A stretch of DNA of 64,000 nt from an uncultured Candidatus Saccharibacteria bacterium (GTDB lineage Bacteria; Patescibacteriota; Minisyncoccia; Phycocordibacterales; CAYRGE01), in the NCBI GenBank assembly GCA_964612415.1, contig CAZTCT010000001.1, positions 455 to 64,454 of the forward strand, read 5' to 3'. The notes under the pieces are model-generated. The model worked only from the letters and a program-made list of their open reading frames with translations. It was not told where the DNA came from and ran no database searches. Of the stretch, positions 13,593 to 51,474 are shown piece by piece. Every line of letters starts with the position of its first letter. Position 1 is the first letter of the stretch. Position numbers and translations under genes: made by a program.

Positions 13593-15524
13593 CTACGGCA
13601 TAACACGTTCGGTATTGGGAAGAGCCTGCGGGTCTCCGGTAAGACGGGTGGTGACAGCTCTAATGGCCTTTGATATTTGTGCCTTAGTGAAGAGGTCCTC
13701 GCCTATGAAGATAATATCTGAAGTTAGTTCAGGAACTGAGTCTATTTGACTGATACTTGGTGTAAAAGCAACTTGAAATGCAGCCTGCCTTGCTGGGCGC
13801 ACAAAACCTGTACCCGCTTTCACATCTCCCAAATCCCAAACCACTTGTCCTCCTACTGGATTAAATGAGATATTTTCGGTAAACCCTGACCCTGAGGTAC
13901 CGAGCCATTCTGCGTACACGGGGAGGGTTGCGGTAACCTTGCCATTCCGGACATCACTTGAGGAATTCGTTACAGTCCAAAGAACTGTGTATGTTGTTCT
14001 TTGTTCTGCGCGTGGAGGAATCGGGCCATTATTTAAAAATGGACCTGTGTAGTAAAGCGTTTGCCCAGCAAGAGATACTGTTGTCTGCAATTCAATCTTT
14101 CTTGTCCCTAATGTAACGGTAATGGGTTTCGGTGTACCGTCTGGGTCTACTGACCTGCCGGTAGCAACAACAGATAGATCAATGCTCGGATTTTGTGGCG
14201 GGACCCCGTCCGCTGACTGTTTCGATTCAAGGGTAAAACTCACAAGGCCTGACGCACCTGGCTCAATGGACCCAAGACTCTCTAGTGTCTGCTGGTTCCA
14301 CACAACGGTATTATCAACAGACCTATAGAACCCAGTCTTCCCAACAGTAACAGAAAAACGGTCCAATGAATCCCCTTCAAGCTTGAGTGAAATTTCAGCG
14401 TTCTGTATTTTTACTGGGAGTGTATTCTTCCACGCAACGTCAACCCGCACCCTCTCCCCACTTGTTGAAATATATTCATTTTTTTCAACACCATTAAAAA
14501 GAAGGTTGAGGGCGAGAGATGCGTTACGCAACGCAGTGCTTTCTGATACGGCAACATACACAGCGCCAGGACGATCCCCCGCATCACCCCTTCTCCCCAC
14601 AGAAGTAGTAATAAGCTTATCCTCCCCATCTTTTCCATTAAACACCCCTTTTATAAGAAATGAGCGTTCTGCCCCCGGCTGCAGATCCCCAATAACCCAA
14701 ATATCATTATTGGATGTCGGGGCTGGAGTCGCACTCCCAAATTGAAATCCAGAAGGATAGTCAACAGCAAGCACAAGGTCTTTGAGTACTTTGGACGAAT
14801 TCGAGCGAACAACAACTGAAACTTGTTCTTCCTGCCCAATAACAATCTCTTGATGTAAAGAAAGGTTTACATCAAGTGGTGACGATGAGATATCTACACT
14901 ATATGTTTCCTCTCGCGAAAGAGTCGCGCTTGACCCCTGGAATCTAAACTCCAAAACAAATTTGATTTCTTTTTTCTCTTCTTTTTCGCCAAAGAGAACA
15001 AATTGTGCTTCGTCATTTACTGTTTCAAATGATCTGACATCTCCAACTTCTTTTTGGGATCTTATAAGTGCCTTTGTCGCATCAGCTGTTTCGTAAGCCC
15101 CTGTCGGATATTCTATATACAATTGTGCATTCTCAATCGGTGTTTCATTATTATTTGCAATGCTGACCTGAAGATTAAGTGGGTCTCCCGCAGCAACCGC
15201 AATCGGCCCGCTAATATTTATTTGCACGTTATTTGCTGAAAAAGTACTCCCTGAAAGAATCCTCCAAACAGCAAAGCCTCCCGCAAGCACAAAGAAGACG
15301 ATTGCCCCAATGAGCATCTTCGCAAGAAGAGAATTCTTTTTGGGTGGAGTAATCGTTGCCCGGGGAGGCTTAGGCTCTTCCCTATTCCACTCCTGGGGAA
15401 CATCATACTGTTTCCCAGGGATAGGCTCTACTATCTTTGTGTCGCTGAAATCTTTTGCGTAGAGTGATTTTTTGATCTCTTCTATTCGATCTTGCTTGCT
15501 CTTTTTTGTATTGGAAGGTTCCAT
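13593..15524 (-). CDS. Large membrane-anchored extracellular protein, probably made of repeated beta-sandwich domains.
   Basis: 643 aa. A ~60-aa cytoplasmic N-terminus, one TM helix (LLAKMLIGAIVFFVLAGGFAVW), then a Ser/Thr/Val/Gly-rich ectodomain. No enzymatic motif. Confidence 0.6.
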   Translation of the reverse strand: MEPSNTKKSKQDRIEEIKKSLYAKDFSDTKIVEPIPGKQYDVPQEWNREEPKPPRATITPPKKNSLLAKMLIGAIVFFVLAGGFAVWRILSGSTFSANNVQINISGPIAVAAGDPLNLQVSIANNNETPIENAQLYIEYPTGAYETADATKALIRSQKEVGDVRSFETVNDEAQFVLFGEKEEKKEIKFVLEFRFQGSSATLSREETYSVDISSSPLDVNLSLHQEIVIGQEEQVSVVVRSNSSKVLKDLVLAVDYPSGFQFGSATPAPTSNNDIWVIGDLQPGAERSFLIKGVFNGKDGEDKLITTSVGRRGDAGDRPGAVYVAVSESTALRNASLALNLLFNGVEKNEYISTSGERVRVDVAWKNTLPVKIQNAEISLKLEGDSLDRFSVTVGKTGFYRSVDNTVVWNQQTLESLGSIEPGASGLVSFTLESKQSADGVPPQNPSIDLSVVATGRSVDPDGTPKPITVTLGTRKIELQTTVSLAGQTLYYTGPFLNNGPIPPRAEQRTTYTVLWTVTNSSSDVRNGKVTATLPVYAEWLGTSGSGFTENISFNPVGGQVVWDLGDVKAGTGFVRPARQAAFQVAFTPSISQIDSVPELTSDIIFIGEDLFTKAQISKAIRAVTTRLTGDPQALPNTERVMP

Positions 15525-15571: not shown

Positions 15572-16162
15572 TTACATTTGGGCGGCAGAGAGCGCGCTAT
15601 TAATTTCAGCAACAACCTCCTTCTCTTTTGGGCCAATTGAACGGATGGTTTCCTGGTCCCAAACAGGTGACATAAGCACGTCGGCAAATATATCTCTGTC
15701 CCTTATATAACCAAGTTCTTTGAACAGCCTAAGATTCCATAGCTCTTCTATATACACTGCATCTCTTCCCTCGAGAATATATTCTGCTAAAAAATTAAGG
15801 GCTTGTTGCAATTCATAGAAAATTCCTGCGTGCACGCCTTCACCAACGACAAACTGATTGATGAGCTTGACCATACGCGCGTACAATGCCCTCTTTTGCG
15901 GATTTTTTAAAATCCCTTGATATTGCTCTCCGTTTGCAGCCCCGACAATTCTCCACATCTCTTTTCCACGAACGAGCTCCACGCGCGGCTGCCTATACGT
16001 TTGCAGCGCATATCGGAGCTTTGAAGACTCCTTGCGAACGCCTGAAGCAGTCGCGGCTACCGCCCCAAATTTGTCTGTAAAGAGAAAGAAGACCCGGCTT
16101 GCATCTCCATACTCTTTGCTCCCCAAGACAAAAGCTTCGGTTTGATACTTATGATAGGCCAT
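15572..16162 (-). CDS. recO: DNA repair protein RecO, short form with no zinc-finger cysteines.
   Basis: N-terminal OB-fold region AFVLGSKEYGDASRVFFLFTDKFGAVAATASGVRKESSKLRYALQ matches RecO_N. Start taken at MAYHKYQTEAF to avoid overlap with ileS. Confidence 0.6.
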   Translation of the reverse strand: MAYHKYQTEAFVLGSKEYGDASRVFFLFTDKFGAVAATASGVRKESSKLRYALQTYRQPRVELVRGKEMWRIVGAANGEQYQGILKNPQKRALYARMVKLINQFVVGEGVHAGIFYELQQALNFLAEYILEGRDAVYIEELWNLRLFKELGYIRDRDIFADVLMSPVWDQETIRSIGPKEKEVVAEINSALSAAQM

Positions 16163-16163
16163 C

Positions 16164-19100
16164 TCATCGCTCTTTAAACGCAACCTTAAACTCACTCCCG
16201 TCTACTTTAACAAGTACCCCGCCTTCAATCTTTCCAAAATCAATACCTGAAAGTGCGGCCACTCTTTGAAATTCGCTCTTATATTTTTCAAATATCTCTT
16301 TTTCGCCTACACCACCGTCAACTAAAAGCCCCACTTTTGCTGAAGGTGTAAGGCCCGCGTCTTTTCTTGCATCCTGTATCTGACGGAGGATATCTCTAAA
16401 TTTCCCTTCCTCTTTTAATTCGGGAGTAATGTGTATATCGAGCGCAGGTTGCGCTACTCCCTCAGCGAATAAAATTTCTTTAACATTCACCTCTTCTCGG
16501 ATAATGGTAAGTAATTGCTCATCTTTAGGAATACTGCCTTTCCCAACCATAAGACTGGCAAGAGGCTGCCGGACCTTTAGCCCAGCTTTCGCACGCGCTT
16601 CAAGCGCCTGTGAGACGATTGCTCGGACTGCGGCCATTTTTTTCACAAGAGCTTGATCTCCTCTCATGCCCTTCGGCCAGGCAGCAAGATGTACGCTTTT
16701 TTGATCTCCTTTCTTGTGTACACTTTGGTACACTTCCTCGGCAATAAATGGCATGAATGGAGCAATAGTCTTTGAAAGTTCAAGAAGTATGTACCTCAAA
16801 GTGGCTTGTACGGCCTTTCTGTCGCTCGTATCAAGCCCTTTGAAGCGCTCGCGAGACCGCCGCACATACCATGTTGAAAGGTCATCAACAAAAAGACCGA
16901 TCGGACGTGCCGCAGCGTCGATCTCGTATGCCTCAAGGCCTTTTTCAACTTCCCTGTGTGTTTGAGCGAGTCGTGAAAGAACCCAGCGGTCAAGGATATG
17001 CTTGCTCTTATTGTGTGGCGCCGTAGTGTCTTTATAGAGCTCATAAAATGAGAGGACATTTGAGAGGCGCAGGATTATTTTTTTATATACATCATCGAGG
17101 CCTGTCTCGGAAAAGCGCAAATCCTCTCCCCTCACAACAGGAGAAGAGACGAGATAATATCGGAGGGCATCTGCACCATATTTATTTATCATCGCTCCCG
17201 GCTCAGGGTAATTCTTCAGCTTCTTACTCATCTTGCGTCCGTCTTCTGCAAGCACAAGACCATTTACCACCACATTTTTGTAGGGAGCCTTCCCAAAAAG
17301 TCCTGTGGCAATTACAAGAAGAGTAAAGAACCACCCTCGTGTCTGATCAAGCCCCTCTGCAATAAACTCAGCAGGAAAATTTTTCTTAAAATCCGCTTTT
17401 CCCTTATATGGATAAGCAAACTGCGCAAATGGCATAGAGCCTGACTCAAACCAGCAATCAAAGACATCTGGGATACGCTTCATGTCTCCTCCGCACTTAC
17501 AACCAAGTTCTATCTCATCAATATATGGCCTGTGAAAATCCACCATATAGTCATCATCGTGTGGAATGGGCGCAAACTTAAGCGATAGAGCTTGTGCAAG
17601 CTCGGGGTATTCGTCATGAGTCTTTTTGAAGGCGGCCATTTCTGCAATGGTTTCTCCATTGCTACCTCTCATCATCATCCACCCAGAGTATTCATGGGTG
17701 ACAAAAAGAAGCGTCTCTCCTTTATGGGTACGTTCCATTTCGTACACAAAATCAAGCGCTCTTTTGCGTACATCAATGAGATGCTCTCCATCAGGAGGTC
17801 GCTTAGTAAACTTCTCCTGCAAATTCGCAAAGAAGTTATGATACTCCTCAACGCTCATTTCATTGAATTTCCCTGTGTTGATCTCGCGCAGACGTGCATC
17901 ATATATGATTGCCTCTTTGGGAATTCCTATCGTCTCCGCCACAAGTTCTGCTGTTTCCTTTGCGCGGGTGATATCAGACGCGTAGATTTTGGTAATGCCT
18001 GCTTTGGCGAGTTTCTTTGCGGTCTTCACTACATCCCTCTTCCCTTTTTCTGTCAGATGATGCGCGTTACGGTTGTAACTGACGATACGTTTTACATTAG
18101 TTTCTGACTGTCCGTGCCGCATCACAAAATATGTGTTGCCTGAGACTTTCGCACTCTTTCTTAATTCTGACAATGAGCTCACGACTTTGCGCTCATTACA
18201 AGTAGAGCACTCCCATACAGGAAACGGTGCTCCCCAAAATCTTGTGCGTGAGATAGACCAATCTCGTGCGCCAGAGAGCCAATTTTTGAAACGCCCGTCT
18301 TTTATATGTTTAGGAACCCAAGAGATCTTTTTATTTTCAGAGAGAAGTTTCTTTTTGAGCTCGGTCACCTTCACAAACCACGACGTGGTCGCATAGTTGA
18401 GCAGCGGCGTATCGCATCTCCAACAATGCGGATATGAGTGAACAATCTTCTCCTTTGAGAAAAGAGTTCCTTTGCCTGCCAAATATTTAATGACCTCAAT
18501 ATCTGTTTCTTGAGGATTTTCTTTTGGTTTTGCCAGCCGTCCTGGAAAATCTTTCACTTCTGACGTGAAATGCCCATCAAAAGATACATGTTGCACAAAA
18601 GGTAATGAGTGTTTCTTGCCCAACTCCATGTCATCTTCTCCAAACGCAGGTGCAATATGAACGACACCAGTACCACTTTCGGTCGTAACGAAATCACCAG
18701 AATATATCTTCCAGCCATTCTCTCTGTTCTCTATATTTGAATTGATGAAATAATCAAAAACTGGCTTGTAAGATTTTCCAACGAGTTCGCTGCTTTTGTA
18801 TTCCTTTTGGATAGTAAATCCTTCCTTGAAAACATGCTCTGCGCGGTCTTTAGCAACGATGTAAGTAGCTTCATCATTGGGAATGCGCGCCTTGATATAA
18901 GTGATGTGCTCACCCACTGCAAGCGCGACATTGCCTGGCAACGTCCATGGCGTAGTCGTCCATGCCAGCACATACGTACCCGGTTCATCTACGAGTTCAA
19001 ATTTTGCCGTTACAGAAATATCAGTGATGTCCTTATACCCATCGGCAACTTCCGTCGCGGAAAGCGTCGTCTCGTCTCGTGGACAGATGAGCATTGATTT

Positions 19101-19649
19101 ATACCCTTTGTAGATAAGCCCCTTTTTATACAACTCGGAGAATGCCCACCAGATAGACTCTGTGTATTCGGCATCCATGGTTTGATAATTATTTTCCATA
19201 TCAACCCACCGCCCCACGCGAGGGATAAATGCTTTCCATTCTTTGTCATAACGGAACACACTGTCTTTGGCAGCTTTATTAAATTTCTCAATCCCATAAT
19301 TCTCAATATCCTTTTTCCCTTTGAAGCCAAGCTCATTTTCTATGAGATTCTCAACTGGCATACCATGACAATCCCACCCCCAGACACGACGTACATACCT
19401 CCCTTTCATGGTCTGATAGCGAGGAATGATATCTTTCACCGTCCCCGGAACTGTGTGCCCATAGTGAGGCAAACCAGTGGCAAATGGAGGACCATCGTAG
19501 AAGACATACGGCTTTTTGCCGCGTGTTTTTGCAAGCGTCTTCTCAAAGATTTTGTTCTCTTCCCAAAAACGGAGGGTCTCTTCCTCCTTACGAGCTGTTT
19601 CAGAAATTTTCCTTCCTTCTTGATTTTTCTCATCAGCAGGGTTGCTCAT
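16164..19649 (-). CDS. ileS: Isoleucyl-tRNA synthetase (type 2) carrying an embedded histidine-phosphatase-like domain.
   Basis: HIGH motif (PHYGHTVPG), editing-domain TTTPWTLPGN, WVPKHIKDGRFKNWL, CWFESGSMPFAQ and KMSKKL. Start chosen at MSNPADEKNQ (19649) to avoid overlap with argS. Residues ~545-750 (nt ~17552..18167) carry RHGQSETN...LTEKGKRD...ASDITRAKETAE...THEYSG. Confidence 0.92.
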   Translation of the reverse strand: MSNPADEKNQEGRKISETARKEEETLRFWEENKIFEKTLAKTRGKKPYVFYDGPPFATGLPHYGHTVPGTVKDIIPRYQTMKGRYVRRVWGWDCHGMPVENLIENELGFKGKKDIENYGIEKFNKAAKDSVFRYDKEWKAFIPRVGRWVDMENNYQTMDAEYTESIWWAFSELYKKGLIYKGYKSMLICPRDETTLSATEVADGYKDITDISVTAKFELVDEPGTYVLAWTTTPWTLPGNVALAVGEHITYIKARIPNDEATYIVAKDRAEHVFKEGFTIQKEYKSSELVGKSYKPVFDYFINSNIENRENGWKIYSGDFVTTESGTGVVHIAPAFGEDDMELGKKHSLPFVQHVSFDGHFTSEVKDFPGRLAKPKENPQETDIEVIKYLAGKGTLFSKEKIVHSYPHCWRCDTPLLNYATTSWFVKVTELKKKLLSENKKISWVPKHIKDGRFKNWLSGARDWSISRTRFWGAPFPVWECSTCNERKVVSSLSELRKSAKVSGNTYFVMRHGQSETNVKRIVSYNRNAHHLTEKGKRDVVKTAKKLAKAGITKIYASDITRAKETAELVAETIGIPKEAIIYDARLREINTGKFNEMSVEEYHNFFANLQEKFTKRPPDGEHLIDVRKRALDFVYEMERTHKGETLLFVTHEYSGWMMMRGSNGETIAEMAAFKKTHDEYPELAQALSLKFAPIPHDDDYMVDFHRPYIDEIELGCKCGGDMKRIPDVFDCWFESGSMPFAQFAYPYKGKADFKKNFPAEFIAEGLDQTRGWFFTLLVIATGLFGKAPYKNVVVNGLVLAEDGRKMSKKLKNYPEPGAMINKYGADALRYYLVSSPVVRGEDLRFSETGLDDVYKKIILRLSNVLSFYELYKDTTAPHNKSKHILDRWVLSRLAQTHREVEKGLEAYEIDAAARPIGLFVDDLSTWYVRRSRERFKGLDTSDRKAVQATLRYILLELSKTIAPFMPFIAEEVYQSVHKKGDQKSVHLAAWPKGMRGDQALVKKMAAVRAIVSQALEARAKAGLKVRQPLASLMVGKGSIPKDEQLLTIIREEVNVKEILFAEGVAQPALDIHITPELKEEGKFRDILRQIQDARKDAGLTPSAKVGLLVDGGVGEKEIFEKYKSEFQRVAALSGIDFGKIEGGVLVKVDGSEFKVAFKER

Positions 19650-19704
19650 AAACAAGTGTTGAATGTATCTATAGTATCTATTTTCTTTTTGTGCGCAAAG
19701 GAGA

Positions 19705-21348
19705 CTACATTTTCTCTGGTGCTGAGATCCCGAGGAGACCGAGGGCTTTTGCGAGTGTATCGCGCGCAACAGAAGCAAGAAGAAGTGCTCCTTTTGCATA
19801 GGTCTCCCCTTCTATAACTCTCACATCTCTATAGAACTGGGAGAACTCGCTGGCAAGTTCATATGCATACGTCGTGAGTTTGTGTACATGATAATCTTTT
19901 GCAATCTCATCTACGACTTCCTTGAATTGCACAATCTTGAATGCGAGTGCGCGCGCAGTAGGTTCATCAAGAATGCTCTCTATAGTTGTTTCATTGGGAC
20001 TAAGCGCCATGGCCTGTTTTTCAATTGAACAAATACGGGCGTGCGCGTATTGCACATAGAATACTGGATTTTTCGCCGAAGTATCCCGGGCAAGGTCAGC
20101 GTCAAAATCCATATGAGTAGAAATCGCCTTCTCAGCAAAAAACCATCTCACCACATCATTGCCGTATTCATTGATAAGGTCTTCAAGTAAAATAACCGTC
20201 CCTGCCCGCTTAGACATTTTTTTGCGTTCTTCTCCATCTTTAAGTCCCACAAGTTGCACGACAAAAATAATCGGCTGGGGCGGATTGTCAGGCCATCCAA
20301 GAATCTTGCCTACCGCATGCATACGTTTTACATGCCCATGATGATCTGCCCCCCAAATATCAATCACTGTATCATCTCCTCGAGAGAACTTTTCCCGATG
20401 ATACGCAATATCAGAAAGAAAATATGTCGCTGTTTTGTCAGAGCGCACAAGGACCCTGTCTTCGTCATCGCCGTATTCGGATGTCTTAAGCCACACCGCA
20501 CCATCTTTCTCGTACACAACTCCTTTCTCTCTAAGATCGGTGAGTGTCTTCTCTGTCACATTTTTCTCCCTTATCTCTTTGTCCTCTGAATACCATCGGT
20601 CAAAATGCACGCCGGCTTTTTGCTCAATGAAATTTTTGTTGTATTCCTGAACCTTTTCTCCAAGAAGAAATCCTGCCTCTGACTCCGTAAGTCCTTCTGT
20701 GTTTACATCAGCCATCATTTCGCTTAGCCGCTCCGTCTTATATTGCTCCCCTTTCCCAAGCGCGGTTTTGCCGAGTTCAATGATCTGATTGCTTTCGCGA
20801 GAGTCATTTATGTAGTACTCGCGCGTAACATCTGCGCCCGTGTATTTGAAAATCCGCGCCAACATATCTCCGTAAAATGCACTGCGCCCATGTCCTATAT
20901 GCAAATCGCCTGTTGGATTCGCAGAAATAAATTCAATATTTATCTTCTCTCCTTCGCGCGAAGAGAGCCCTTCGTCTAGTCCCTCCCGCAAAGATGCGAG
21001 ATCCTGCTCAATCGCCTTTTTGGTAAGTTTAATATTTAAGAACCCAGGACCCGCAACTTCCACACCCTCCAGAAGGTCTTTGAGGTTTGGGTTGTGCTCA
21101 AGTTCACTCTTGAGGCTTTCGGCAAGCTCTTTTGGGCTCTTCCCTGCGTCTTTGGCGCAAGAGAGAGCAACTCCTGACGCATAGTCAGCATGAGGGGTTC
21201 GCGACAATACTTCTGCCTTAGGAGAAACCCCGTATTTTTCCTTTAAAATATGCTCTATTTGAGCGGAAATAGTCTCTTTCACAATAGCGCAATGATAGCA
21301 TGGAAAAGTGGACAAAAAGAAGCCGGCGCACAAGCGCCGGTTCTGCAA
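19705..21348 (-). CDS. argS: Arginyl-tRNA synthetase.
   Basis: HIGH region ANPTGDLHIGHGRSA. 547 aa with class-I architecture and an anticodon-binding C-terminus. The true start may be an alternative codon slightly downstream of 21348. Confidence 0.9.
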   Translation of the reverse strand: MQNRRLCAGFFLSTFPCYHCAIVKETISAQIEHILKEKYGVSPKAEVLSRTPHADYASGVALSCAKDAGKSPKELAESLKSELEHNPNLKDLLEGVEVAGPGFLNIKLTKKAIEQDLASLREGLDEGLSSREGEKINIEFISANPTGDLHIGHGRSAFYGDMLARIFKYTGADVTREYYINDSRESNQIIELGKTALGKGEQYKTERLSEMMADVNTEGLTESEAGFLLGEKVQEYNKNFIEQKAGVHFDRWYSEDKEIREKNVTEKTLTDLREKGVVYEKDGAVWLKTSEYGDDEDRVLVRSDKTATYFLSDIAYHREKFSRGDDTVIDIWGADHHGHVKRMHAVGKILGWPDNPPQPIIFVVQLVGLKDGEERKKMSKRAGTVILLEDLINEYGNDVVRWFFAEKAISTHMDFDADLARDTSAKNPVFYVQYAHARICSIEKQAMALSPNETTIESILDEPTARALAFKIVQFKEVVDEIAKDYHVHKLTTYAYELASEFSQFYRDVRVIEGETYAKGALLLASVARDTLAKALGLLGISAPEKM

Positions 21349-42937: not shown

Positions 42938-43013
42938 TGGGGTGCCTATCCGGATTTGAACCGGAACTGAGGGCTCCACAAACCCTAGTGCTAACCATTA
43001 CACCATAGGCACC
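42938..43013 (-). tRNA. tRNA-His (GTG) with an encoded G-1 and CCA.
   Basis: Reverse complement is gGTGCCTATGGTGTAATGGTTAGCACTAGGGTTTGTGGAGCCCTCAGTTCCGGTTCAAATCCGGATAGGCACCCCA. Anticodon loop is UUGUGGA. Confidence 0.85.
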
Positions 43014-43029
43014 ATATTGTTCGCACCAA

Positions 43030-43578
43030 TTAATATTGGGGCGGTTGCTCCGTTATACCAGATTTATGGTTCGCAAGTCTAGCCAGAGCGTACAAAAGAC
43101 TTGAGAGCCGATTGAGATACCGCAATGTCTGCTCTTCCAACTTCACCACACCTTCATCCGAAACCGCCACAACTCGCCGCTCGGCACGCCGCGCAAGAGT
43201 GCGCGCAACATCAAGATACGCACCAAACTCACTGCCCCCGGGGAGGAAAAAGCTCTTGATTGGGGGTAATTCTTTTTCTACTGCATTTACCATTTCCTCC
43301 ACAGTCTCAACTTTCTCTTTCTGGATAATTTTATCAGCACCGGCAACCTGCGCTTGAATGATAAAGAGATTTTGCTGTACTCCGATCAAAATATCTTTGT
43401 AGAATTGTCCATTAGCTTTATACTCATGCGCATTTTTTTGATTGCGACAAAGGCCCAAATAGGAGTTGAGTTCATCGAGCGTACCAAGCGCCTCAGCGGT
43501 AGAAGAACTCTTTGAAATTCGCTGATTGCATCCAAATGTTCCTGTATCACCCTTGTCTCCTTTTCCGGTAAATAACAT
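43030..43578 (-). CDS. ATP:cob(I)alamin adenosyltransferase, PduO/MMAB type.
   Basis: N-terminal MLFTGKGDKGDTG and a helical-bundle body (LDELNSYLGLCR...DVARTLARRAERRVV). Confidence 0.7.
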   Translation of the reverse strand: MLFTGKGDKGDTGTFGCNQRISKSSSTAEALGTLDELNSYLGLCRNQKNAHEYKANGQFYKDILIGVQQNLFIIQAQVAGADKIIQKEKVETVEEMVNAVEKELPPIKSFFLPGGSEFGAYLDVARTLARRAERRVVAVSDEGVVKLEEQTLRYLNRLSSLLYALARLANHKSGITEQPPQY

Positions 43579-43612
43579 GCAAAAAGTATAGCATGGTAAA
43601 AATTACCTAAAG

Positions 43613-43640
43613 AAAAAGCGGCCGATGTGCGTGGCCGCTT
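43613..43640 (-). terminator. Terminator after the glycine-zipper gene.
   Basis: AAAAAGCGGCC-GATGTGCGT-GGCCGCTT. In minus-strand sense the hairpin is followed by UUUUUCUUU. Confidence 0.55.
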
Positions 43641-43661
43641 CCTGAATAGGAAAATGAAAAA

Positions 43662-43988
43662 CTATCGTATGTGGATTTGGATATTAATCCGGGGGCGAGA
43701 ATGTTGCCGATAGTAGTATCTCGGCGGGGATGTGTAGTGGTAACGGACAGAATATCCGGGGGCGTAATACCGTGCTCTTGCAGAGTAACGATAGCGAGCA
43801 TTCCGCTCGGCCTCAACTCCAGCAAGCGCTCCGATTGCCGCGCCCGTGATCGCTGCGTTACGATCGTGTCCGATGGCTTTGCCCACAATGGCTCCGCCAA
43901 TCACCCACTTTGCGATATCGCTCGCAGAAGCAGTGCCTGCTGCTGTGAGGGCAAAAAATCCTAGGCAAAACACCAATATCTTTTTCAT
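43662..43988 (-). CDS. Secreted glycine-zipper (Gly-zipper/17-kDa-antigen-like) protein with a Tyr/Arg-rich tail.
   Basis: Signal peptide MKKILVFCLGFFALTAAGTASA, then GGAIVGKAIG...GAAIGALAGV, then RYRYSARARYYAPGYSVRYHY. Confidence 0.55.
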   Translation of the reverse strand: MKKILVFCLGFFALTAAGTASASDIAKWVIGGAIVGKAIGHDRNAAITGAAIGALAGVEAERNARYRYSARARYYAPGYSVRYHYTSPPRYYYRQHSRPRINIQIHIR

Positions 43989-44151
43989 CTTCAGGTCCTC
44001 CCTGTTGTAATGAACGAATGACTATACCCTTTTTCAATTATATACGAAAATGAGGGTTTTGTCAATCTGGCAATATGGCAATCGCAAAATACAGGCTTGT
44101 CCCACATAAACCATCAATATCCTTGTGGCCAGGGATAATATCTTCGCCGCC

Positions 44152-44172
44152 GTTCAAGTCCTCTCCTGCGCA
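44152..44172 (+). repeat. Inverted copy of the last 21 nt of tRNA-Leu (T-loop plus 3' acceptor strand).
   Basis: GTTCAAGTCCTCTCCTGCGCA on the plus strand is the exact reverse complement of 44221..44241. The 48-nt spacer carries a GCCGG...CCGGC hairpin with U-rich flanks. Confidence 0.8.
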
Positions 44173-44220
44173 AAAATAAAAGTCGCCGGACACATCCGTG
44201 CCCGGCTTCTTAATTTTGTG

Positions 44221-44304
44221 TGCGCAGGAGAGGACTTGAACCTCCATTCCCTTGCGGGAGCTACCACCTCAAGGTAGTGCGTCTACCAGTTTCGCCACCT
44301 GCGC
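44221..44304 (-). tRNA. tRNA-Leu (GAG), long variable arm, CCA not encoded.
   Basis: Reverse complement is GCGCAGGTGGCGAAACTGGTAGACGCACTACCTTGAGGTGGTAGCTCCCGCAAGGGAATGGAGGTTCAAGTCCTCTCCTGCGCA. Anticodon loop is UUGAGGU. Confidence 0.8.
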
Positions 44305-44382
44305 GTAAAGACTACTCTATTATAAAACACTCCTTTCTACAAGATAGCCCACGAGAAAACCCGCCTTCTGGCGGGTTTGTCT

Positions 44383-44874
44383 TTATGCTTTCTGCTCCTC
44401 TGTTTCTGTTGCTTCAGGAGTATCGTTTGTGGGTTCCGTAGCTTCTGCTGGGGCCTCTGCTGCTTCAGCCTCTTTCTCAATTTCTGCCGTAGAAGAGAAC
44501 CCTGCCTTTGAGATGAGCTTGCTTGTCTTGCTTCGGATCTCTTTGGTAGCCTTATCGCGAATGTAGTAGAGCTTCGCGCGGCGAACTTTCGCGCGGCGAA
44601 CGATCTCAATCTTATCAATCACAGGAGAATAGAGCGGGAAGATGCGCTCTACCCCTACTCCACTTGTTACCTTGCGGACAGTGAAGGTAGCGCCAGCTTC
44701 TGAGCCATGCTTCACAGAAAGCACCATACCCTCAAATATCTGAAGGCGGGTCTTATCCTTTTCTTGAATCTTCTGAAACACGCGCACAGTATCACCCGCT
44801 CGGAGCTGAAGCTTTTTGCGAGCGTCGGTATTTACTGGGGTGAATTTAATTGCTGTTGCTGGCATAGTTTTCAC
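44383..44874 (-). CDS. rplS: 50S ribosomal protein L19 with an Ala/Glu-rich C-terminal extension.
   Basis: [60 protein letters not shown] matches L19. The ~45-aa tail reads [19 protein letters not shown]... Confidence 0.9.
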
Positions 44875-44920
44875 TAAAACAGTAGCACTCTAACATAAAG
44901 GCCTTGGCACGGCAAGGCCT

Positions 44921-45652
44921 TTATTTTTCGCCCATTTTGGCGACCGCCTCCTCCATGTCATCTGGGAGAGGAGCCTCAAGTACAAGCTTGTGCCCATCGG
45001 GGTGCACAATGGCAAGGCGCCACGCATGAAGAGCTAGCCGGTGAAGCCCGAGAAGGGGTTCCTTACTTGGTGCGTAGAGACTATCACATACCACTGGGTG
45101 CTCTATTGCTTTCATGTGCACTCGTATCTGGTGTGTTCTGCCGGTCTTTGGATACACCTCTATATATGTACACTCTTCTCCTCTTAAGAGTACCTTGTAT
45201 TCTGTATGCGCTTCTCGTAGGACTCCTCGCGCATGCGAGCCAGCAAGCCTCTTCCGAAAATCGCTTTTACTTCTCCCAATGGGAAGATCGATGGTACCCG
45301 CATCATCTTTTATAACTCCATATACAATCGCCCGATACACTTTCTCGGTGGCTCTCTCTTTAAATGCATTTTTGAGGTGCATGAAGGTATCTTGATCTTT
45401 CGCAATGACGAGTACACCTGATGTGTCTTTATCAAGTCTATGGACAATCCCAGGGCGAAAGATTTTCTCTCCTGAAGTAAGCACTATGGGCTCCCCAACT
45501 TCCTTAATAGATGGATATCGCTCTAGCACCCAGTCAGTAAGTGTCGGCTCGTCTGTTTTTCCATCAGGATGCACCACAAGACCTGCGGGCTTATTGATCG
45601 CAACCAGATTGTTGTCCTCATAAATGACGCCGATTTCCATATGTGCGGTCAT
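44921..45652 (-). CDS. RluA-family pseudouridine synthase.
   Basis: Catalytic motif GIVHRLDKDTSGVLVIA. 243 aa with no S4 domain. Confidence 0.88.
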   Translation of the reverse strand: MTAHMEIGVIYEDNNLVAINKPAGLVVHPDGKTDEPTLTDWVLERYPSIKEVGEPIVLTSGEKIFRPGIVHRLDKDTSGVLVIAKDQDTFMHLKNAFKERATEKVYRAIVYGVIKDDAGTIDLPIGRSKSDFRKRLAGSHARGVLREAHTEYKVLLRGEECTYIEVYPKTGRTHQIRVHMKAIEHPVVCDSLYAPSKEPLLGLHRLALHAWRLAIVHPDGHKLVLEAPLPDDMEEAVAKMGEK

Positions 45653-45692
45653 TATACAGGATTTTATTTGACCAAAAGAAAGGTGTGGGGTT

Positions 45693-45962
45693 ATGATGGC
45701 AAAAGAAGGACATTACATTCATTTTTTGGAGGGTGTTATGTTAGAGAAACAAGACTCCATGCACAGAAATTCATCCCCTGGTCAGATACTTGCTCCGGTT
45801 ATTTTAAGAGCAATACAGACCGGTAGGCCCCAGCGACTTGCGGGTCACCAGAACAAACAATTTCATAGTGCATTTATTGCTCTGTATGGCGCAGAGATCG
45901 AAAAGAGGCGGACAGAAAAACATCGCTCGTTGGAAAAGCTCAGAAATCTACTTGTAGATTAA
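45693..45962 (+). CDS. Hypothetical small protein.
   Basis: 89 aa ORF preceded by an SD-like AAAGGTGTGGGG. No recognisable motif. Confidence 0.35.
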   Translation: MMAKEGHYIHFLEGVMLEKQDSMHRNSSPGQILAPVILRAIQTGRPQRLAGHQNKQFHSAFIALYGAEIEKRRTEKHRSLEKLRNLLVD

Positions 45963-45967
45963 TCTAA

Positions 45968-46177
45968 GTGCAACTGGAGGGACGCGTGATGTCAAAAGAA
46001 GAGATCATTCGAGGGCCTCGCAGTGAACGCGAGATGCTTCAGGGAGGTGGTCGCCCGAAGAGGTACGACCCTGTCACTGGGTTACCACTTCCTGACAACG
46101 CTCAATTGAAATATTTGAAGGCTTCAAAAGCGAACGCAGGCTCCTTGGGCAAAGAAACGCTCATCCAGGAGGACTAA
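45968..46177 (+). CDS. Hypothetical small protein.
   Basis: 69 aa, 5 nt after the previous ORF. No recognisable motif. Confidence 0.35.
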   Translation: MQLEGRVMSKEEIIRGPRSEREMLQGGGRPKRYDPVTGLPLPDNAQLKYLKASKANAGSLGKETLIQED

Positions 46178-46260
46178 AGGCGCTCATCCGAGAAGGTGAG
46201 CTCCGTCGCGATACAAAATCTTCAACAGATTGAATTTAAAAACAATCAAGGGGGATTAAA

Positions 46261-46428
46261 TGTCTTCAAGACAACGTAAGCAATACAGCTTCGGAAGGAG
46301 AAGGAAAATCCGTGACGATCTTTCTACAGACACAGCTCTACTTCTTCTCAGGAACACTCCTGCAGGTGTGGCTGGAGCAATAAATCGCCTTATGGCACGT
46401 TGTCAGCACAGGCATCACAGGCAGTAAC
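46261..46428 (+). CDS. Possible small basic protein (55 aa), not in the ORF track.
   Basis: ATG preceded by the SD CAAGGGGGATTAA. Translation is MSSRQRKQYSFGRRRKIRDDLSTDTALLLLRNTPAGVAGAINRLMARCQHRHHRQ. It overlaps the start of the next ORF in another frame. Confidence 0.25.
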
Positions 46429-46666
46429 ATATCTTGCAACTACAACAAAGAAGGAGCAGTGCAGCATGACAAGTAAAAACTACAGGGACCTTGGTCTGGT
46501 AGAACCAATTGACCATTCTGAAAACACTCTTTCCGGGTCTTCGTACGAAGATGAGCCCCCCCTCAAACAGCCACCCGTTCACAGTGGGACTCTTCATTGC
46601 ACCGACGAAGGACAAGCACGAAGATTTGGGGTAGAAATGTATCCCATAACAATCCCTTTCATATAA
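46400..46666 (+). CDS. Hypothetical small protein.
   Basis: 88 aa ORF followed 25 nt later by a clean intrinsic terminator. Confidence 0.35.
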   Translation: MSAQASQAVTYLATTTKKEQCSMTSKNYRDLGLVEPIDHSENTLSGSSYEDEPPLKQPPVHSGTLHCTDEGQARRFGVEMYPITIPFI

Positions 46667-46691
46667 AAATGAACCCCTTTTAATTACGAAA

Positions 46692-46714
46692 GCCCCGCAT
46701 TGCGGGGCTTTTTG
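46692..46714 (+). terminator. Rho-independent terminator after the small-ORF cluster.
   Basis: GCCCCGC-ATT-GCGGGGC followed by TTTTTG. Confidence 0.65.
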
Positions 46715-46716
46715 TT

Positions 46717-46737
46717 TAGTGGGCGGTACAGGACTTG
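46717..46737 (-). repeat. Direct repeat of the tRNA-Val 3' end, located 150 nt downstream of the tRNA gene.
   Basis: Plus-strand TAGTGGGCGGTACAGGACTTG is identical to 46887..46907, which is the 3' end of tRNA-Val. Confidence 0.8.
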
Positions 46738-46888
46738 GTCACAACTCTGCCTTGCCTTAAGCGGCAGGTCGCTACCCCGCCTCGCGCACGGCCTTCGGCC
46801 GGCTTCGCGCGCTCCGGCTTTCAAGTCCTCCACGCCGCACAAAATAAAAGTCGCCGAATGCTCTCGCATCCGGCTCCTTTATTTTTAG
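46738..46888. other. GC-rich structured non-coding segment between the tRNA-Val 3'-end direct repeats.
   Basis: Contains GGCCTTCGGCC (a UUCG-tetraloop hairpin), GCGCGC runs, a degenerate inverted copy of the tRNA-Val 3' end (GGCTTTCAAGTCCTCCACGCCGCAC), and the AAAATAAAAGTCGCCG...CCGGC spacer that is also seen next to tRNA-Leu. Confidence 0.5.
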
Positions 46889-46961
46889 TGGGCGGTACAG
46901 GACTTGAACCTGTGACCTTCTCGGTGTAAACGAGTTGCTCTACCAACTGAGCTAACCGCCC
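46889..46961 (-). tRNA. tRNA-Val (TAC), CCA not encoded.
   Basis: Reverse complement is GGGCGGTTAGCTCAGTTGGTAGAGCAACTCGTTTACACCGAGAAGGTCACAGGTTCAAGTCCTGTACCGCCCA. Anticodon loop is UUUACAC. Confidence 0.85.
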
Positions 46962-47087
46962 GTGTGATGCTTGTTTCTTATGGTCACGAGAGCTGCGAGG
47001 ACGCTTCGCTATCTCACTCCTCGGAAACCTACATCCCCTATCACCTGCTCGCTTCGCTTGCATCGGTGATTTTGCTTTGCAAATCGG

Positions 47088-47116
47088 ATGAAACACAAAG
47101 CAGTTTGTGTTTCATT
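47088..47116. terminator. Hairpin downstream of tRNA-Arg, a candidate terminator.
   Basis: TGAAACACAAAG-CAGT-TTGTGTTTCA perfect stem with T/A-rich flanks. Confidence 0.4.
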
Positions 47117-47177
47117 TCTACTCCGGACTTCGTCCTGCCTTCCTCCCCGGGAAACTTCCATTTCCCGACCCCTTCCC

Positions 47178-47199
47178 TGTTCGATTCCTCGCGAGGGAA
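47178..47199 (+). repeat. Inverted copy of the tRNA-Arg(TCT) 3' end.
   Basis: Plus-strand GTTCGATTCCTCGCGAGGGAAG matches the sense 3' end GGTTCGATTCCTCGCGAGGGCA of the minus-strand tRNA, 25 nt away. Confidence 0.7.
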
Positions 47200-47224
47200 G
47201 AAAATATACTCCGTTATTTTCTTA

Positions 47225-47296
47225 TGCCCTCGCGAGGAATCGAACCTCGATTAACGGCTTAGAAGTCCGCAGTTCTATCCATTGAACTACGAGGGC
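47225..47296 (-). tRNA. tRNA-Arg (TCT).
   Basis: Reverse complement is GCCCTCGTAGTTCAATGGATAGAACTGCGGACTTCTAAGCCGTTAATCGAGGTTCGATTCCTCGCGAGGGCA. Anticodon loop is CUUCUAA. Confidence 0.8.
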
Positions 47297-47332
47297 GAGG
47301 TTGCCTCACTATACGAGAAAACACACTTAGGG

Positions 47333-47632
47333 TCAATTGCCTGCCTCAAGTAATGCCTGCATGCGAGCAGCCTTCTGCCCGTAATGATCCATTACTTTAT
47401 TGAGCAGATCCACTTTAAGCGTCGTTTCAGTGACAGATTCTGTAGGAGATTCCTGAAAGATAGTCCCGGCATTTACCTGCAAGAAAACATAGACATGCAG
47501 TGCGATCGCACAGAGGAGTGCCGCAGCGAATACTGAAAAAATAATTCTCCAGTCTCGATAGGGCTTAATTGCAAGTCGAGAGGGATCGTCCTGCTCCTCC
47601 TGTTTTTTAATTTTAAACTTTGGGAATTTCAT
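47333..47632 (-). CDS. Hypothetical small membrane-anchored protein at the distal end of the pilMNO operon, a possible PilP analogue.
   Basis: 99 aa. Basic N-terminus, then a TM helix IIFSVFAAALLCAIALHVYVFL. It starts 7 nt after pilO. Confidence 0.45.
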   Translation of the reverse strand: MKFPKFKIKKQEEQDDPSRLAIKPYRDWRIIFSVFAAALLCAIALHVYVFLQVNAGTIFQESPTESVTETTLKVDLLNKVMDHYGQKAARMQALLEAGN

Positions 47633-47638
47633 ACAACT

Positions 47639-48184: not shown

Positions 48185-48189
48185 AATAA

Positions 48190-48765: not shown

Positions 48766-48771
48766 GTTGTA

Positions 48772-49887: not shown

Positions 49888-49893
49888 AAGAAA

Positions 49894-50490: not shown

Positions 50491-50491
50491 A

Positions 50492-50821: not shown

Positions 50822-50822
50822 A

Positions 50823-51411: not shown

Positions 51412-51435
51412 CAAAAGATTCGGTGCCCAAAAACA

Positions 51436-51462: not shown

Positions 51463-51474
51463 GTAAATGAACAA

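What the first reader, a model, noticed from the sequence alone, without database searches (positions are those of the whole stretch)
17552..18167. Isoleucyl-tRNA synthetase with an embedded, apparently intact histidine-phosphatase (PGAM/SixA-type) domain
A ~190-aa module is inserted between the post-editing zinc-knuckle region (WECSTCNERKVVSSLSEL) and the conserved DFHRPYIDE...CWFESGSMPFAQ block that precedes KMSKS. The module carries all hallmarks of the RHG histidine-phosphatase fold: VMRHGQSETN (catalytic His), LTEKGKRDVVKTAKKL, IYASDITRAKETAE, REINTGKFNEMSVEEY, PDGEHLIDVRKRAL and LLFVTHEYSG (second His). The IleS catalytic motifs (HYGH, KMSKK), editing-domain signature and anticodon-binding region are all present in one continuous frame. 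A separate stand-alone SixA-like gene with a different sequence sits at 51475..51927, so this is not an assembly duplication. I am not aware of any described aminoacyl-tRNA synthetase fused to a phosphatase domain. It could be a moonlighting or regulatory activity, for example hydrolysis of a phosphorylated intermediate or nucleotide.
Basis: seen in the sequence. Interest (0 to 1): 0.75.

Follow-up and report, generated by a model that had tools for sequence, protein, structure and literature searches.

The report
Phosphatase nested inside isoleucyl-tRNA synthetase
The enzyme that loads isoleucine onto tRNA in this candidate-phyla-radiation bacterium has a complete, apparently active histidine-phosphatase domain built into its catalytic core; hundreds of related species share this, and their cousins keep the same phosphatase as a separate gene directly in front of ileS, which points to an undescribed phosphatase partner of tRNA charging.

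Summary
Window 16164..19649 (-) encodes one 1161-aa type-2 IleRS. Residues 501-698 (nt 17556..18149) form a full PhoE-type histidine phosphatase (Pfam His_Phos_1, E=1e-32; AF2 pLDDT 93.5; Foldseek TM 0.80 to PhoE 1H2E). The domain replaces a 3-4 residue loop inside the second zinc knuckle.

It is not a misassembly. All 120 best full-length homologues carry it. A scan of GTDB species representatives found 488 candidate loci, and in 77 of the best 80 the three parts lie in one ORF. All are Patescibacteria/Parcubacteria lineages. The catalytic residues R, H, N, R, E, H are invariant down to 29% identity.

New finding: the closest stand-alone relatives (187-193 aa) lie between argS and an insert-free ileS. 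IleS is downstream in 31 of 33 loci, and the median stop-to-start distance is 1 nt. Nested and separate forms never co-occur (0/160 loci). A distant IleRS lineage has the domain at two other sites, one organism fuses it to ArgRS, and one contig fuses it to TsaC.

The domain is therefore a dedicated, probably active phosphohydrolase partner of IleRS. Its substrate is unknown. I found no publication describing it. I rate it a new variant of a known kind, interest 0.65.

The parts
16164..19649 (-). Complete ileS gene (1161 aa plus stop), type-2 IleRS with nested phosphatase domain
   Evidence: ORF; TIGR00392 874 bits; best PDB matches are type-2 and T. thermophilus IleRS 8C8U/1ILE, E=1e-234/1e-215; AF2 full-length pLDDT 85.7, pTM 0.78
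18150..19649 (-). IleRS N-terminal part (res 1-500): first Rossmann half with HYGH (19455..19466), CP1 editing domain (WTTTPWTLPGN, GTGxVHxAPxFGxxD invariant) and the first Cys pair of the second Zn knuckle
18198..18209 (-). CSTC (C481, C484), first half of the zinc knuckle that hosts the insert
   Evidence: at least 90% conserved in 56 sequences; coordinates checked
17556..18149 (-). Nested PhoE-type histidine phosphatase domain (res 501-698)
   Evidence: PF00300 E=2e-33 on the excised segment; PhoE 1EBB/1H2E E=5e-17; AF2 pLDDT 93.5, pTM 0.91; Foldseek 1H2E TM 0.80, rmsd 2.1
18111..18119 (-). RHG motif (R511, nucleophile H512, G513)
   Evidence: R and H in 121/121 full-length sequences and 29/29 divergent inserts
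18096..18098 (-). N518, phosphate-pocket Asn
   Evidence: 121/121; invariant in A2
17964..17966 (-). R562, second phosphate-pocket Arg
   Evidence: 121/121; invariant in A2
17883..17885 (-). E589, general acid
   Evidence: 121/121; invariant in A2; E or D in stand-alone relatives
17694..17696 (-). H652, second catalytic His
   Evidence: 120/121; invariant in A2 and A4
17556..17564 (-). C-terminal junction motif P-H-D (consensus PxPHN) found only in nested forms
   Evidence: P696 invariant, H697 and N698 at least 90%; absent from stand-alone proteins, which end at ...GEFRKLN
17493..17501 (-). CKC (C717, C719), second half of the zinc knuckle
   Evidence: at least 90% conserved; coordinates checked
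16164..17555 (-). IleRS C-terminal part (res 699-1161): second Rossmann half with KMSKK (17220..17234), Anticodon_1, DUF5915
19705..21348 (-). argS directly upstream (conserved neighbour; in relatives the stand-alone phosphatase gene lies between argS and ileS)
   Evidence: Pfam Arg_tRNA_synt_N, tRNA-synt_1d, DALR_1; synteny
15572..16195 (-). recO-like gene directly downstream (conserved neighbour)
   Evidence: RecO_N; synteny

Best explanation
This is a genuine, ancient domain insertion. A whole PhoE-type histidine phosphatase of about 195 aa is nested in the loop of the second zinc knuckle of a type-2 IleRS, between the editing/CP region and the second half of the Rossmann fold. IleRS keeps all of its own catalytic and editing motifs, and the phosphatase keeps its full phosphohistidine catalytic set. 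The protein should therefore be bifunctional: isoleucyl-tRNA synthesis plus phosphoryl hydrolysis through a phospho-His512 intermediate. The domain is the covalent version of a phosphatase that related Patescibacteria encode as a separate gene, translationally coupled to ileS in an argS-X-ileS operon. The phosphatase is thus a dedicated partner of IleRS, and IleRS acts as its targeting platform. SHOWN: the architecture, the insertion site, the fold, conservation of the catalytic residues, the clade-wide distribution, the stand-alone operon counterpart, mutual exclusivity of the two forms, and independent insertions elsewhere in IleRS. INFERRED: that the domain is enzymatically active, and that the stand-alone form binds IleRS. 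GUESS (about 0.3 of the probability mass): the substrate is a phosphate carried by IleRS's own macromolecular ligand, most likely a 2'/3'-phosphate or cyclic phosphate at the acceptor end of tRNA(Ile) that blocks charging. On that reading it is a tRNA-end healing step tethered to the synthetase. The stated confidence refers to the general statement (an active phosphatase functionally coupled to IleRS), not to the substrate.
For: Architecture and site. Fold: the full-length AF2 model has the insert at pLDDT about 87-96 in most 10-residue blocks, with one block at 68 for residues 671-680; the domain alone has pLDDT 93.5; the top Foldseek hit is PhoE 1H2E at TM 0.80. Purifying selection on catalysis: R511, H512, N518, R562 and E589 are present in 121/121 sequences and H652 in 120/121. 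The same residues are invariant in 29 inserts that are only 29-46% identical, although the insert is less conserved overall than the core (mean top-residue frequency 0.63 vs 0.70-0.77). Not an artefact: all 120 best homologues carry PF00300; 488 candidate loci were found in GTDB species representatives, and 77 of the best 80 have the N-part, insert and C-part in one ORF. Partnership with IleRS: stand-alone relatives P0306, P0328 and P0344 lie directly upstream of insert-free ileS with argS further upstream. Among 36 stand-alone metagenome loci, 31 of the 33 with room have IleS downstream and 26 of 30 have ArgS upstream. The stop-to-start distance has a median of 1 nt, and 32 of 37 lie within -11..+17 nt. 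None of 160 loci has both forms. Independent unions: the P0310/P0392 IleRS (35% identical, 6 cluster members, contigs up to 1.06 Mb) has two His_Phos domains at two other sites; P0246 has at least 4 tandem copies after the IleRS N-part; there is one ArgRS C-terminal fusion and one TsaC fusion. Of the 150 closest cluster representatives among 1.84 billion, 96 are IleRS-embedded.
Against: There is no biochemical evidence, and no computation here identifies the substrate. The position of the domain relative to the synthetase active site is not conserved across the fusions: a zinc-knuckle loop, a site after CWFESG, a site after KMSKS, and the ArgRS C-terminus next to the anticodon-binding domain. 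This argues against precise substrate channelling. Gene order in streamlined Patescibacteria genomes is generally conserved, so adjacency alone is weak evidence of function. The ArgRS and TsaC fusions are each known from a single organism or contig. The domain tree is star-like and unresolved. I could not obtain model coordinates to measure the distance from H512 to the acceptor-end or KMSKS site. PhoE-type enzymes are characterised as small-molecule phosphatases (PMC3866925), not RNA phosphatases, which weighs against my substrate guess.
Confidence: 0.75

Rival explanations
1. Small-molecule product or by-product clearance. The domain hydrolyses a diffusible phosphorylated compound tied to adenylate chemistry, such as AMP or other NMPs, PPi, or another nucleotide. 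Tethering simply matches its dosage to that of the synthetase.
For: The three fusion partners (IleRS, ArgRS, TsaC) share only ATP -> X-AMP + PPi chemistry. The variable insertion sites fit a diffusible substrate. Tandem 2x and 4x copies suggest that activity dosage matters. The closest characterised relative, PhoE, is a broad-specificity small-molecule phosphatase (PMC3866925). A NUDIX gene sits in the same operon in L090.
Against: A diffusible substrate gives no obvious reason for specific, repeated physical union with IleRS out of roughly 20 synthetases. I found no precedent for PPi hydrolysis by a branch-1 His_Phos enzyme. The MutT1 precedent I had in mind turned out to be a protein phosphohistidine phosphatase. 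Dephosphorylating AMP would waste nucleotides in organisms that are thought, from my own knowledge, to depend on salvage.
Confidence: 0.25
2. No mechanistic link. An unrelated housekeeping phosphatase happened to lie in the argS-ileS operon and became fused or nested by near-neutral rearrangement in a genome prone to fusions. It does its own metabolic job, and the fusion only guarantees co-expression.
For: The ArgRS fusion can be explained by simple stop-codon loss between neighbouring genes. Synteny of the whole block Tmk-ArgS-IleS-RecO-large protein-class II aaRS is conserved. The insert evolves faster than the IleRS core.
Against: Nesting inside a catalytic-core loop is not a simple neighbour fusion. 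It is retained in hundreds of species. A distant IleRS lineage acquired the domain independently at two other sites. The nested and stand-alone forms are strictly exclusive and always adjacent to ileS.
Confidence: 0.2
3. Protein phosphatase guarding the synthetase. The domain removes an inhibitory phosphate from IleRS itself, for example the KMSKS-loop serine that HipA-type kinase toxins target in other class I synthetases (my own knowledge), or a phosphohistidine.
For: Small RHG domains act on phosphoproteins: SixA on ArcB and Ndk, and the MutT1 C-terminal domain on sensor kinases (PMC12407098 and PMC12934123). In the P0310 lineage the two inserts flank the KMSKS-bearing segment. ArgRS in the window also has a KMSKR motif.
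Against: The domain is PhoE-like, not SixA-like (TIGR00249 34 bits vs cutoff 74.5). I did not look for or find a cognate kinase. TsaC has no KMSKS motif.
Confidence: 0.1
4. Catalytically dead structural or regulatory module (pseudo-enzyme) that only binds a phosphorylated ligand.
For: None specific. In principle a domain inserted next to the active site could act as a sensor.
Against: All six catalytic residues are invariant across at least 150 sequences, a pattern typical of active enzymes.
Confidence: 0.03
5. Assembly chimera, intein or mobile-element insertion.
For: The consensus junction ends in ...PHN, which superficially resembles an intein C-terminal HN.
Against: The same in-frame architecture occurs in hundreds of independent assemblies. 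The composition is identical to that of the host gene. Pfam reports only His_Phos_1 in the segment, with no Hint or intein domain. The fold is a full phosphatase. The residue after the junction is variable, not Cys/Ser/Thr.
Confidence: 0.01

Closest known systems
PhoE / YhfR of Geobacillus (Bacillus) stearothermophilus, broad-specificity histidine phosphatase (PDB 1EBB, 1H2E)
   Same: Best sequence match among solved structures (E=5e-17, about 30-37% identity) and best fold match (TM 0.80, rmsd 2.1 A). It has the same catalytic residues and about the same size (roughly 200 aa).
   Different: PhoE is a free-standing enzyme with no link to a synthetase. The insert clade has its own signature (N-x-Y-F-x-x-RHG start, frequent HH before LTEKG), and nearly all of its nearest relatives are IleRS-embedded or ileS-adjacent.
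Type-2 IleRS (Priestia megaterium IleRS2 8C8U; Thermus thermophilus 1ILE)
   Same: The same enzyme on both sides of the insert (E=1e-234 and 1e-215). HIGH, KMSKS, editing motifs and both zinc knuckles are present.
   Different: The solved enzymes have a 3-4 residue loop (8C8U residues 478-483) where the window protein has 198 residues.
NCBIfam NF040702 'isoleucine--tRNA ligase, N-acetyltransferase domain-containing'
   Same: The only curated model I saw for an IleRS carrying an extra enzymatic domain, which shows that IleRS tolerates such additions.
   Different: A different added domain (GNAT). The window protein scores 331 bits against a cutoff of 1999, so it is not a member. I found no paper on that family; SbzA in PMC6331615 is an IleRS-like enzyme whose GNAT partners are separate proteins.
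Mycobacterial MutT1 (Nudix + RHG C-terminal domain) and Rv2228c-type RNase H/acid phosphatase (NF005567)
   Same: Branch-1 His_Phos domains fused to an enzyme of nucleotide or nucleic-acid metabolism. The insert gives weak hits to both models. The RHG motif is required for MutT1 C-terminal domain activity (PMC12407098).
   Different: Those are end-to-end fusions, not nested ones. The partners differ, and the MutT1 C-terminal domain is SixA-like and acts on phosphohistidine proteins.
Idiosyncratic insertion modules of class Ia synthetases (e.g. the leucine-specific domain of LeuRS, CP-domain zinc knuckles)
   Same: A lineage-specific module inserted into the catalytic core shortly before the KMSKS-bearing half of the Rossmann fold (my own knowledge of LeuRS; insertion site).
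   Different: Those modules are not independent enzymes and have no free-standing homologues encoded next to the synthetase gene.

Membership tests
Histidine phosphatase superfamily, branch 1 (Pfam PF00300 His_Phos_1) | Profile match above the curated gathering score | tested here: met
   113.6-116.1 bits vs cutoff 21.7; profile positions 2-170 of 194
Histidine phosphatase superfamily, branch 1 (Pfam PF00300 His_Phos_1) | RHG motif with nucleophilic His, plus the second Arg, Asn, acidic residue and second His of the phosphate pocket | tested here: met
   R511, H512, N518, R562, E589 and H652 are present and invariant across the family
Histidine phosphatase superfamily, branch 1 (Pfam PF00300 His_Phos_1) | Alpha/beta fold of the superfamily | tested here: met
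   AF2 pLDDT 93.5; 292 PDB matches at E<=1e-3, and all 50 listed are His_Phos enzymes
Histidine phosphatase superfamily, branch 1 (Pfam PF00300 His_Phos_1) | Phosphoryl-transfer activity via a phosphohistidine intermediate | not testable with these tools
   Needs an enzyme assay
Cofactor-dependent phosphoglycerate mutase (NF038349 dPGM_arch, TIGR01258) | Score above the NCBIfam cutoff for the equivalog | tested here: not met
   91.6 bits vs 225; TIGR01258 24.1 vs 81.7. The ExxxG context is PhoE-like (REINTG), not the ERxYG of mutases (sequence plus my own knowledge).
SixA phosphohistidine phosphatase (TIGR00249) | Score above the NCBIfam cutoff; short domain of about 155 aa | tested here: not met
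   34 bits vs 74.5, and only the N-terminal 70 residues align; the domain is about 195 aa
Isoleucine--tRNA ligase (TIGR00392) | Equivalog score above the cutoff | tested here: met
   874 bits vs 621.4
Isoleucine--tRNA ligase (TIGR00392) | Class I signature motifs HIGH and KMSKS, and the CP1 editing motifs | tested here: met
   HYGH res 62-65 and KMSKK res 806-810; WTTTPWTLPGN and GTGxxHxAPxFGExD invariant in 56 sequences
Type-2 (eukaryote-like) IleRS as opposed to type-1 | Closer to type-2 and T. thermophilus enzymes than to type-1 (S. aureus, E. coli type) | tested here: met
   8C8U 784 bits and 1ILE 719 bits, against S. aureus 1FFY 326 bits; the C-terminal DUF5915 is present
Mupirocin-resistance IleRS MupA/MupB (NF000257/NF000258) | Score above the exception-model cutoff | tested here: not met
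   757-770 bits vs cutoff 1900
Intein / Hint-domain insertion | Hint fold with N-terminal Cys/Ser and C-terminal HN followed by Cys/Ser/Thr | tested here: not met
   No Hint/intein Pfam hit; the insert starts at K-V-S-G-N; the residue after PHN is variable; the fold is His_Phos

The most novel reading that the evidence does not exclude
The phosphatase is a dedicated repair or counter-defence enzyme of the isoleucine-charging step. Using IleRS as its tRNA- or self-targeting platform, it removes a blocking phosphate from the 3' end of tRNA(Ile) or from the synthetase's own KMSKS loop, as would be left by ribotoxins, 3'-end (pyro)phosphorylating toxins or HipA-like kinases. This would be a previously unknown, phosphatase-based layer of translation maintenance that is built into a synthetase in one clade and operon-encoded in its relatives.
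Probability: 0.3. Interest if true: 0.85.

Novelty: new variant of a known kind. Interest (0 to 1): 0.65.

Why it matters
Aminoacyl-tRNA synthetases are among the most conserved enzymes known. Extra catalytic domains inside the bacterial catalytic core are rare, and I found no described phosphatase among them. Three genomic signals point the same way here: nesting in hundreds of species, a translationally coupled stand-alone gene in their relatives, and independent insertions at other IleRS sites. Together they indicate that a phosphohydrolase works with IleRS in a major branch of the candidate phyla radiation. If the substrate is tRNA or the synthetase itself, this would reveal a new maintenance or anti-toxin step in translation. 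If it is a nucleotide or PPi, it would show how ultra-small cells handle the products of adenylation. Either way it gives a directly testable handle (H512A, the excised domain, the stand-alone orthologue) on the biology of organisms that cannot yet be grown alone. It also provides a natural example of a whole enzyme tolerated inside a zinc-knuckle loop, which is useful for protein engineering.

Tried and rejected
(1) Misassembly or chimera: rejected from the distribution data and composition.

(2) Duplication of the window's other His_Phos gene at 51475..51927: rejected.

(3) Natural 'split IleRS'. Short IleS fragments on long contigs (P0038, P0012, P0046) looked like splits. L001 is a 1-nt indel in an A5 run. 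L002 and L003 are multiply fragmented assemblies.

(4) MutT1 as precedent for phosphoanhydride hydrolysis by a His_Phos domain: my recollection was wrong. The paper assigns protein phosphohistidine phosphatase activity to that domain.

(5) A link through the HD phosphatase domain of CCA-adding enzymes in Patescibacteria: the only paper found says nothing about it.

(6) Pyrophosphatase absence in Parcubacteria: the literature search was uninformative.

(7) SbzA as an IleRS-GNAT fusion precedent: the GNATs there are separate proteins.

(8) Defence-system membership: no meaningful PADLOC hit.

(9) Domain phylogeny to decide between single and multiple origins: the NJ tree is star-like and unresolved.

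(10) The search for related loci with the diverse alignments A2 and A4 failed for lack of conserved stretches; the narrower alignments A3 and A5 worked.

(11) The word-indexed search with the insert alone found only three Geobacillus PhoE proteins; the exhaustive HMMER scan was needed to find the stand-alone relatives.

(12) The first ArgS neighbour count was void because of a scripting bug (the TTG start was translated as L). It was redone.
Full report
OBSERVATION. The minus strand carries one uninterrupted ORF at 16164..19799. The upstream argS ORF ends at 19705, and homologues begin at the equivalent of MSNPADEK, so I take the start as the ATG at 19649 (1161 aa). Cluster P0121 is a 99% identical protein of exactly 1161 aa. 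Pfam finds tRNA-synt_1 split into two stretches, with His_Phos_1 between them (E=1.2e-32), followed by Anticodon_1 and DUF5915. NCBIfam calls the protein ileS (TIGR00392, 874 bits vs cutoff 621).

WHERE THE INSERT SITS. Against solved structures, residues 17-500 align to residues 8-478 of the type-2 IleRS 8C8U, and residues 700-1082 align to 483-869. About 198 residues (501-698; nt 17556..18149) therefore replace a 3-4 residue loop. The flanking CSTC (481-484) and CKC (717-719) are at least 90% conserved in the family. From my own recollection of the T. thermophilus IleRS structure, they correspond to the second zinc knuckle (Cys461/464/502/504). I did not check that correspondence residue by residue. 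The site lies after the CP1 editing domain and about 90 residues before KMSKK. The IleRS signature motifs (HYGH, KMSKK, the threonine-rich and GTG editing motifs) are all intact and invariant.

WHAT THE INSERT IS. On its own the segment matches His_Phos_1 at E=2e-33. It falls below the NCBIfam cutoffs for phosphoglycerate mutase, SixA, CobC and PspA. Its closest solved relative is the broad-specificity phosphatase PhoE/YhfR (E=5e-17). AlphaFold2 gives pLDDT 93.5 and pTM 0.91 for the domain alone. In the full-length model (pLDDT 85.7, pTM 0.78) most 10-residue blocks of the insert score about 87-96, with one block at 68 for residues 671-680. Foldseek ranks PhoE 1H2E first (TM 0.80, rmsd 2.1 A), followed by other branch-1 phosphatases and mutases. 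It is a complete PhoE-type domain.

REAL AND WIDESPREAD. All 120 best full-length homologues (54-59% identity, about 1150-1250 aa) carry PF00300. Source names include Yonathbacteria, Lloydbacteria, Paceibacterota, Minisyncoccota and Parcubacteria. Partial sequences extend this to Nomurabacteria, Kaiserbacteria and Pacebacteria. In 77 of the best 80 loci the IleRS N-part, insert and C-part lie in one frame and one ORF with the same junctions. One of the three exceptions (L071) runs off the contig end. In L005 and L034 the N-part was not recovered in that frame, and I did not pursue the reason. The insert's base composition equals that of its host gene. Misassembly is excluded.

UNDER SELECTION AS AN ENZYME. 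In 121 full-length sequences, R511, H512, N518, R562 and E589 are present in 121/121 and H652 in 120/121. In 29 inserts only 29-46% identical to the window's, the invariant columns are R11, H12, N18, T33, G36, S58, R62, E89, E122, R130, H152 and P196, which include the full catalytic set. Overall the insert is less conserved than the IleRS core (0.63 vs 0.70-0.77 mean top-residue frequency), which makes the invariance of the catalytic residues more telling.

THE KEY NEW RESULT: A STAND-ALONE COUNTERPART NEXT TO ileS. An exhaustive HMMER scan of 1.84 billion cluster representatives with the insert gave 10,182 hits at E<=1e-3 and 734 at E<=1e-10. Of the best 150, 96 have IleRS flanks. Many of the rest are free-standing proteins of about 190-205 aa. 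I looked up three of these on long contigs. P0306 and P0344 lie directly between argS and ileS. In L090, P0328 lies immediately upstream of ileS, and two further genes (a NUDIX hydrolase and an unknown 205-aa protein) separate it from argS. In all three the IleRS (931-968 aa) has no insert. A metagenome scan seeded with stand-alone sequences returned 80 loci, 44 nested and 36 stand-alone. Among the stand-alone loci, 31 of the 33 with room have IleS downstream (29 within 300 bp), and in those IleS genes the N- and C-parts abut, so there is no insert. After I fixed a script bug, 26 of 30 have ArgS upstream. The distance from the phosphatase stop codon to the IleS start has a median of 1 nt, and 32 of 37 lie within -11..+17 nt, many as 4-nt overlaps. 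One caveat: I chose the in-frame start codon nearest the stop, which biases these distances low. None of 160 loci contains two His_Phos regions, so the nested and separate forms are mutually exclusive. The stand-alone protein aligns with the insert from its N-x-Y-F-x-x-RHG start to its ...GE-x-R-x-L end, so essentially a whole gene product is nested. Only the PxPHN junction motif is specific to nested forms.

OTHER UNIONS. P0310/P0392 is a 1419-aa IleRS only 35% identical to the window's. Its cluster has six members on contigs up to 1.06 Mb. It has two His_Phos domains at two different sites, one after CWFESGSMPYA and one after KMSKS before the helical domain. P0246 has an IleRS N-part followed by at least four tandem copies, but on a 3.9-kb contig. 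P0323 is a complete ArgRS with a C-terminal His_Phos. Its locus is the usual neighbourhood without IleS. It was found in two samples with the same sequence and no other locus. P0385 is TsaC/Sua5-YrdC plus His_Phos, a singleton on a 3.7-kb contig. I did not establish how common the ArgRS and TsaC fusions are.

EVOLUTION. An NJ tree of the domains is star-like and does not resolve origins. An NJ tree of the IleRS core with the insert removed (125 sequences, 860 columns) places insert-free lineages in several blocks among nested ones. Fitch parsimony needs 5-7 changes in 60 of 60 bootstraps, against a mean of 22 for shuffled labels. The state is thus clade-structured but appears to have switched several times. 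Re-insertion at the same site seems implausible. NJ artefacts, intragenic recombination or repeated gain and loss are all possible. I leave this unexplained.

HOW IT PROBABLY WORKS. Shown: a bifunctional polypeptide in which neither enzyme has lost its catalytic residues, and an exclusive, translationally coupled or covalent association of this phosphatase clade with IleRS. Inferred: the domain is an active phosphohydrolase that works with IleRS, and in the separate-gene lineages it probably binds IleRS. The substrate is not determined. The association is specific to IleRS among roughly 20 synthetases, and the other two partners (ArgRS, TsaC) are also tRNA-related. I therefore favour, weakly (about 0.3), a macromolecular substrate presented by the synthetase, most simply a blocking phosphate on the acceptor end of tRNA(Ile). 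Clearance of a small phosphorylated product (AMP or other nucleotide, PPi) is nearly as likely (0.25). It fits PhoE's known small-molecule character (PMC3866925) and the variable insertion geometry. A neutral fusion of an unrelated housekeeping phosphatase (0.2) and a protein-phosphatase role (0.1; precedents SixA and the MutT1 C-terminal domain, PMC12407098, PMC12934123) remain open. I could not obtain model coordinates, so I could not test the orientation of the phosphatase active site relative to the synthetic site, the KMSKS loop or the tRNA path.

COMPARISON WITH WHAT IS KNOWN, AND NOVELTY. The two parts are members of well-known families (see the membership table). The combination is not described in any paper I could find. 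Searches combining IleRS or aaRS with histidine phosphatase, His_Phos_1, phosphoglycerate mutase, Patescibacteria or CPR gave nothing relevant. The sequences are public but annotated only as 'class I tRNA ligase family protein', 'isoleucine--tRNA ligase' or 'hypothetical protein'. NCBIfam has a special model for IleRS with a GNAT domain but none for this architecture. I classify it as a new variant of a known kind (a synthetase with an accessory domain).

VERDICT. The finding is real and clade-wide, the domain is probably enzymatically active, and it is functionally tied to IleRS. The substrate is unknown. Interest 0.65.

Noticed in passing
L087 (ENA ERZ25074184 contig_3, 1.06 Mb), gene 6001-10260; proteins P0310/P0392: A distant IleRS (35% identical, 1419 aa) carries two His_Phos domains at two sites different from the window's: one after CWFESGSMPYA and one after KMSKS. 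Neighbouring genes include an SLH-domain protein, DAHP synthase and adenylosuccinate synthase, so this is probably a different lineage.
   Followed up: partly
P0246 (1161 aa, ENA, 3.9-kb contig): A very divergent IleRS N-terminal part is followed by at least four tandem His_Phos_1 domains. The contig ends before any C-terminal IleRS part.
   Followed up: partly
L084/L085, gene 5001-7070 (P0323): A complete ArgRS with a C-terminal His_Phos domain and no linker. IleS is absent from its usual slot between argS and recO. It is unknown where that genome's IleS lies or whether it has an insert.
   Followed up: partly
L086, gene 977-2140 (P0385): A TsaC/Sua5-YrdC domain fused to a His_Phos domain of the same clade. 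The upstream gene is a HAD-family hydrolase. Singleton on a 3.7-kb contig.
   Followed up: partly
L090, 4915-6004: In one stand-alone lineage, a NUDIX hydrolase gene and an unknown 205-aa gene (no Pfam hit) lie between argS and the phosphatase gene. This may be relevant to a nucleotide substrate.
   Followed up: no
L001 around 4985; L002 3745-7243; L003 3337-6857: IleS appears as 2-4 adjacent ORFs. In L001 this is a 1-nt indel in an A5 run inside the phosphatase domain. L002 and L003 look like indel-rich assemblies. These are not natural split synthetases.
   Followed up: yes
IleRS core tree of loci L004-L173: The nested and insert-free states need 5-7 parsimony changes on bootstrapped NJ trees, which suggests repeated switching between a nested domain and a separate upstream gene. 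No mechanism is apparent.
   Followed up: partly
window 17556..17564 (res 696-698) and homologues: A conserved PxPHN motif marks the C-terminal junction of nested inserts and is absent from stand-alone proteins. It may be a docking or hinge element.
   Followed up: no
window 51475..51927 (-) and 51325..51412 (+): A second, short (150 aa) SixA-like His_Phos_1 protein that is not significantly similar to the insert lies next to a tRNA-Ser(UGA) gene.
   Followed up: partly
window 15572..16195 (-) and 16164..16195: The recO-like ORF overlaps the 3' end of ileS by 32 nt if its GTG start is used. Only the RecO_N domain is detected, whereas some relatives have both RecO_N and RecO_C.
   Followed up: no
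window 19650..19799 (-): The ileS ORF extends 50 codons upstream of the likely start and overlaps the 3' end of argS (19705..). Automatic callers could over-extend the gene to 1211 aa.
   Followed up: partly
window 13593..15524 (-): A 643-aa DUF11/CLIPPER-like protein with an N-terminal hydrophobic segment is a conserved downstream neighbour of ileS-recO across these genomes. Its function is unknown.
   Followed up: no
window 42938..60662: ARAGORN finds seven tRNA genes (His, Leu, Val, Arg-UCU, Ser, Arg-GCG, Lys). None is tRNA-Ile.
   Followed up: no
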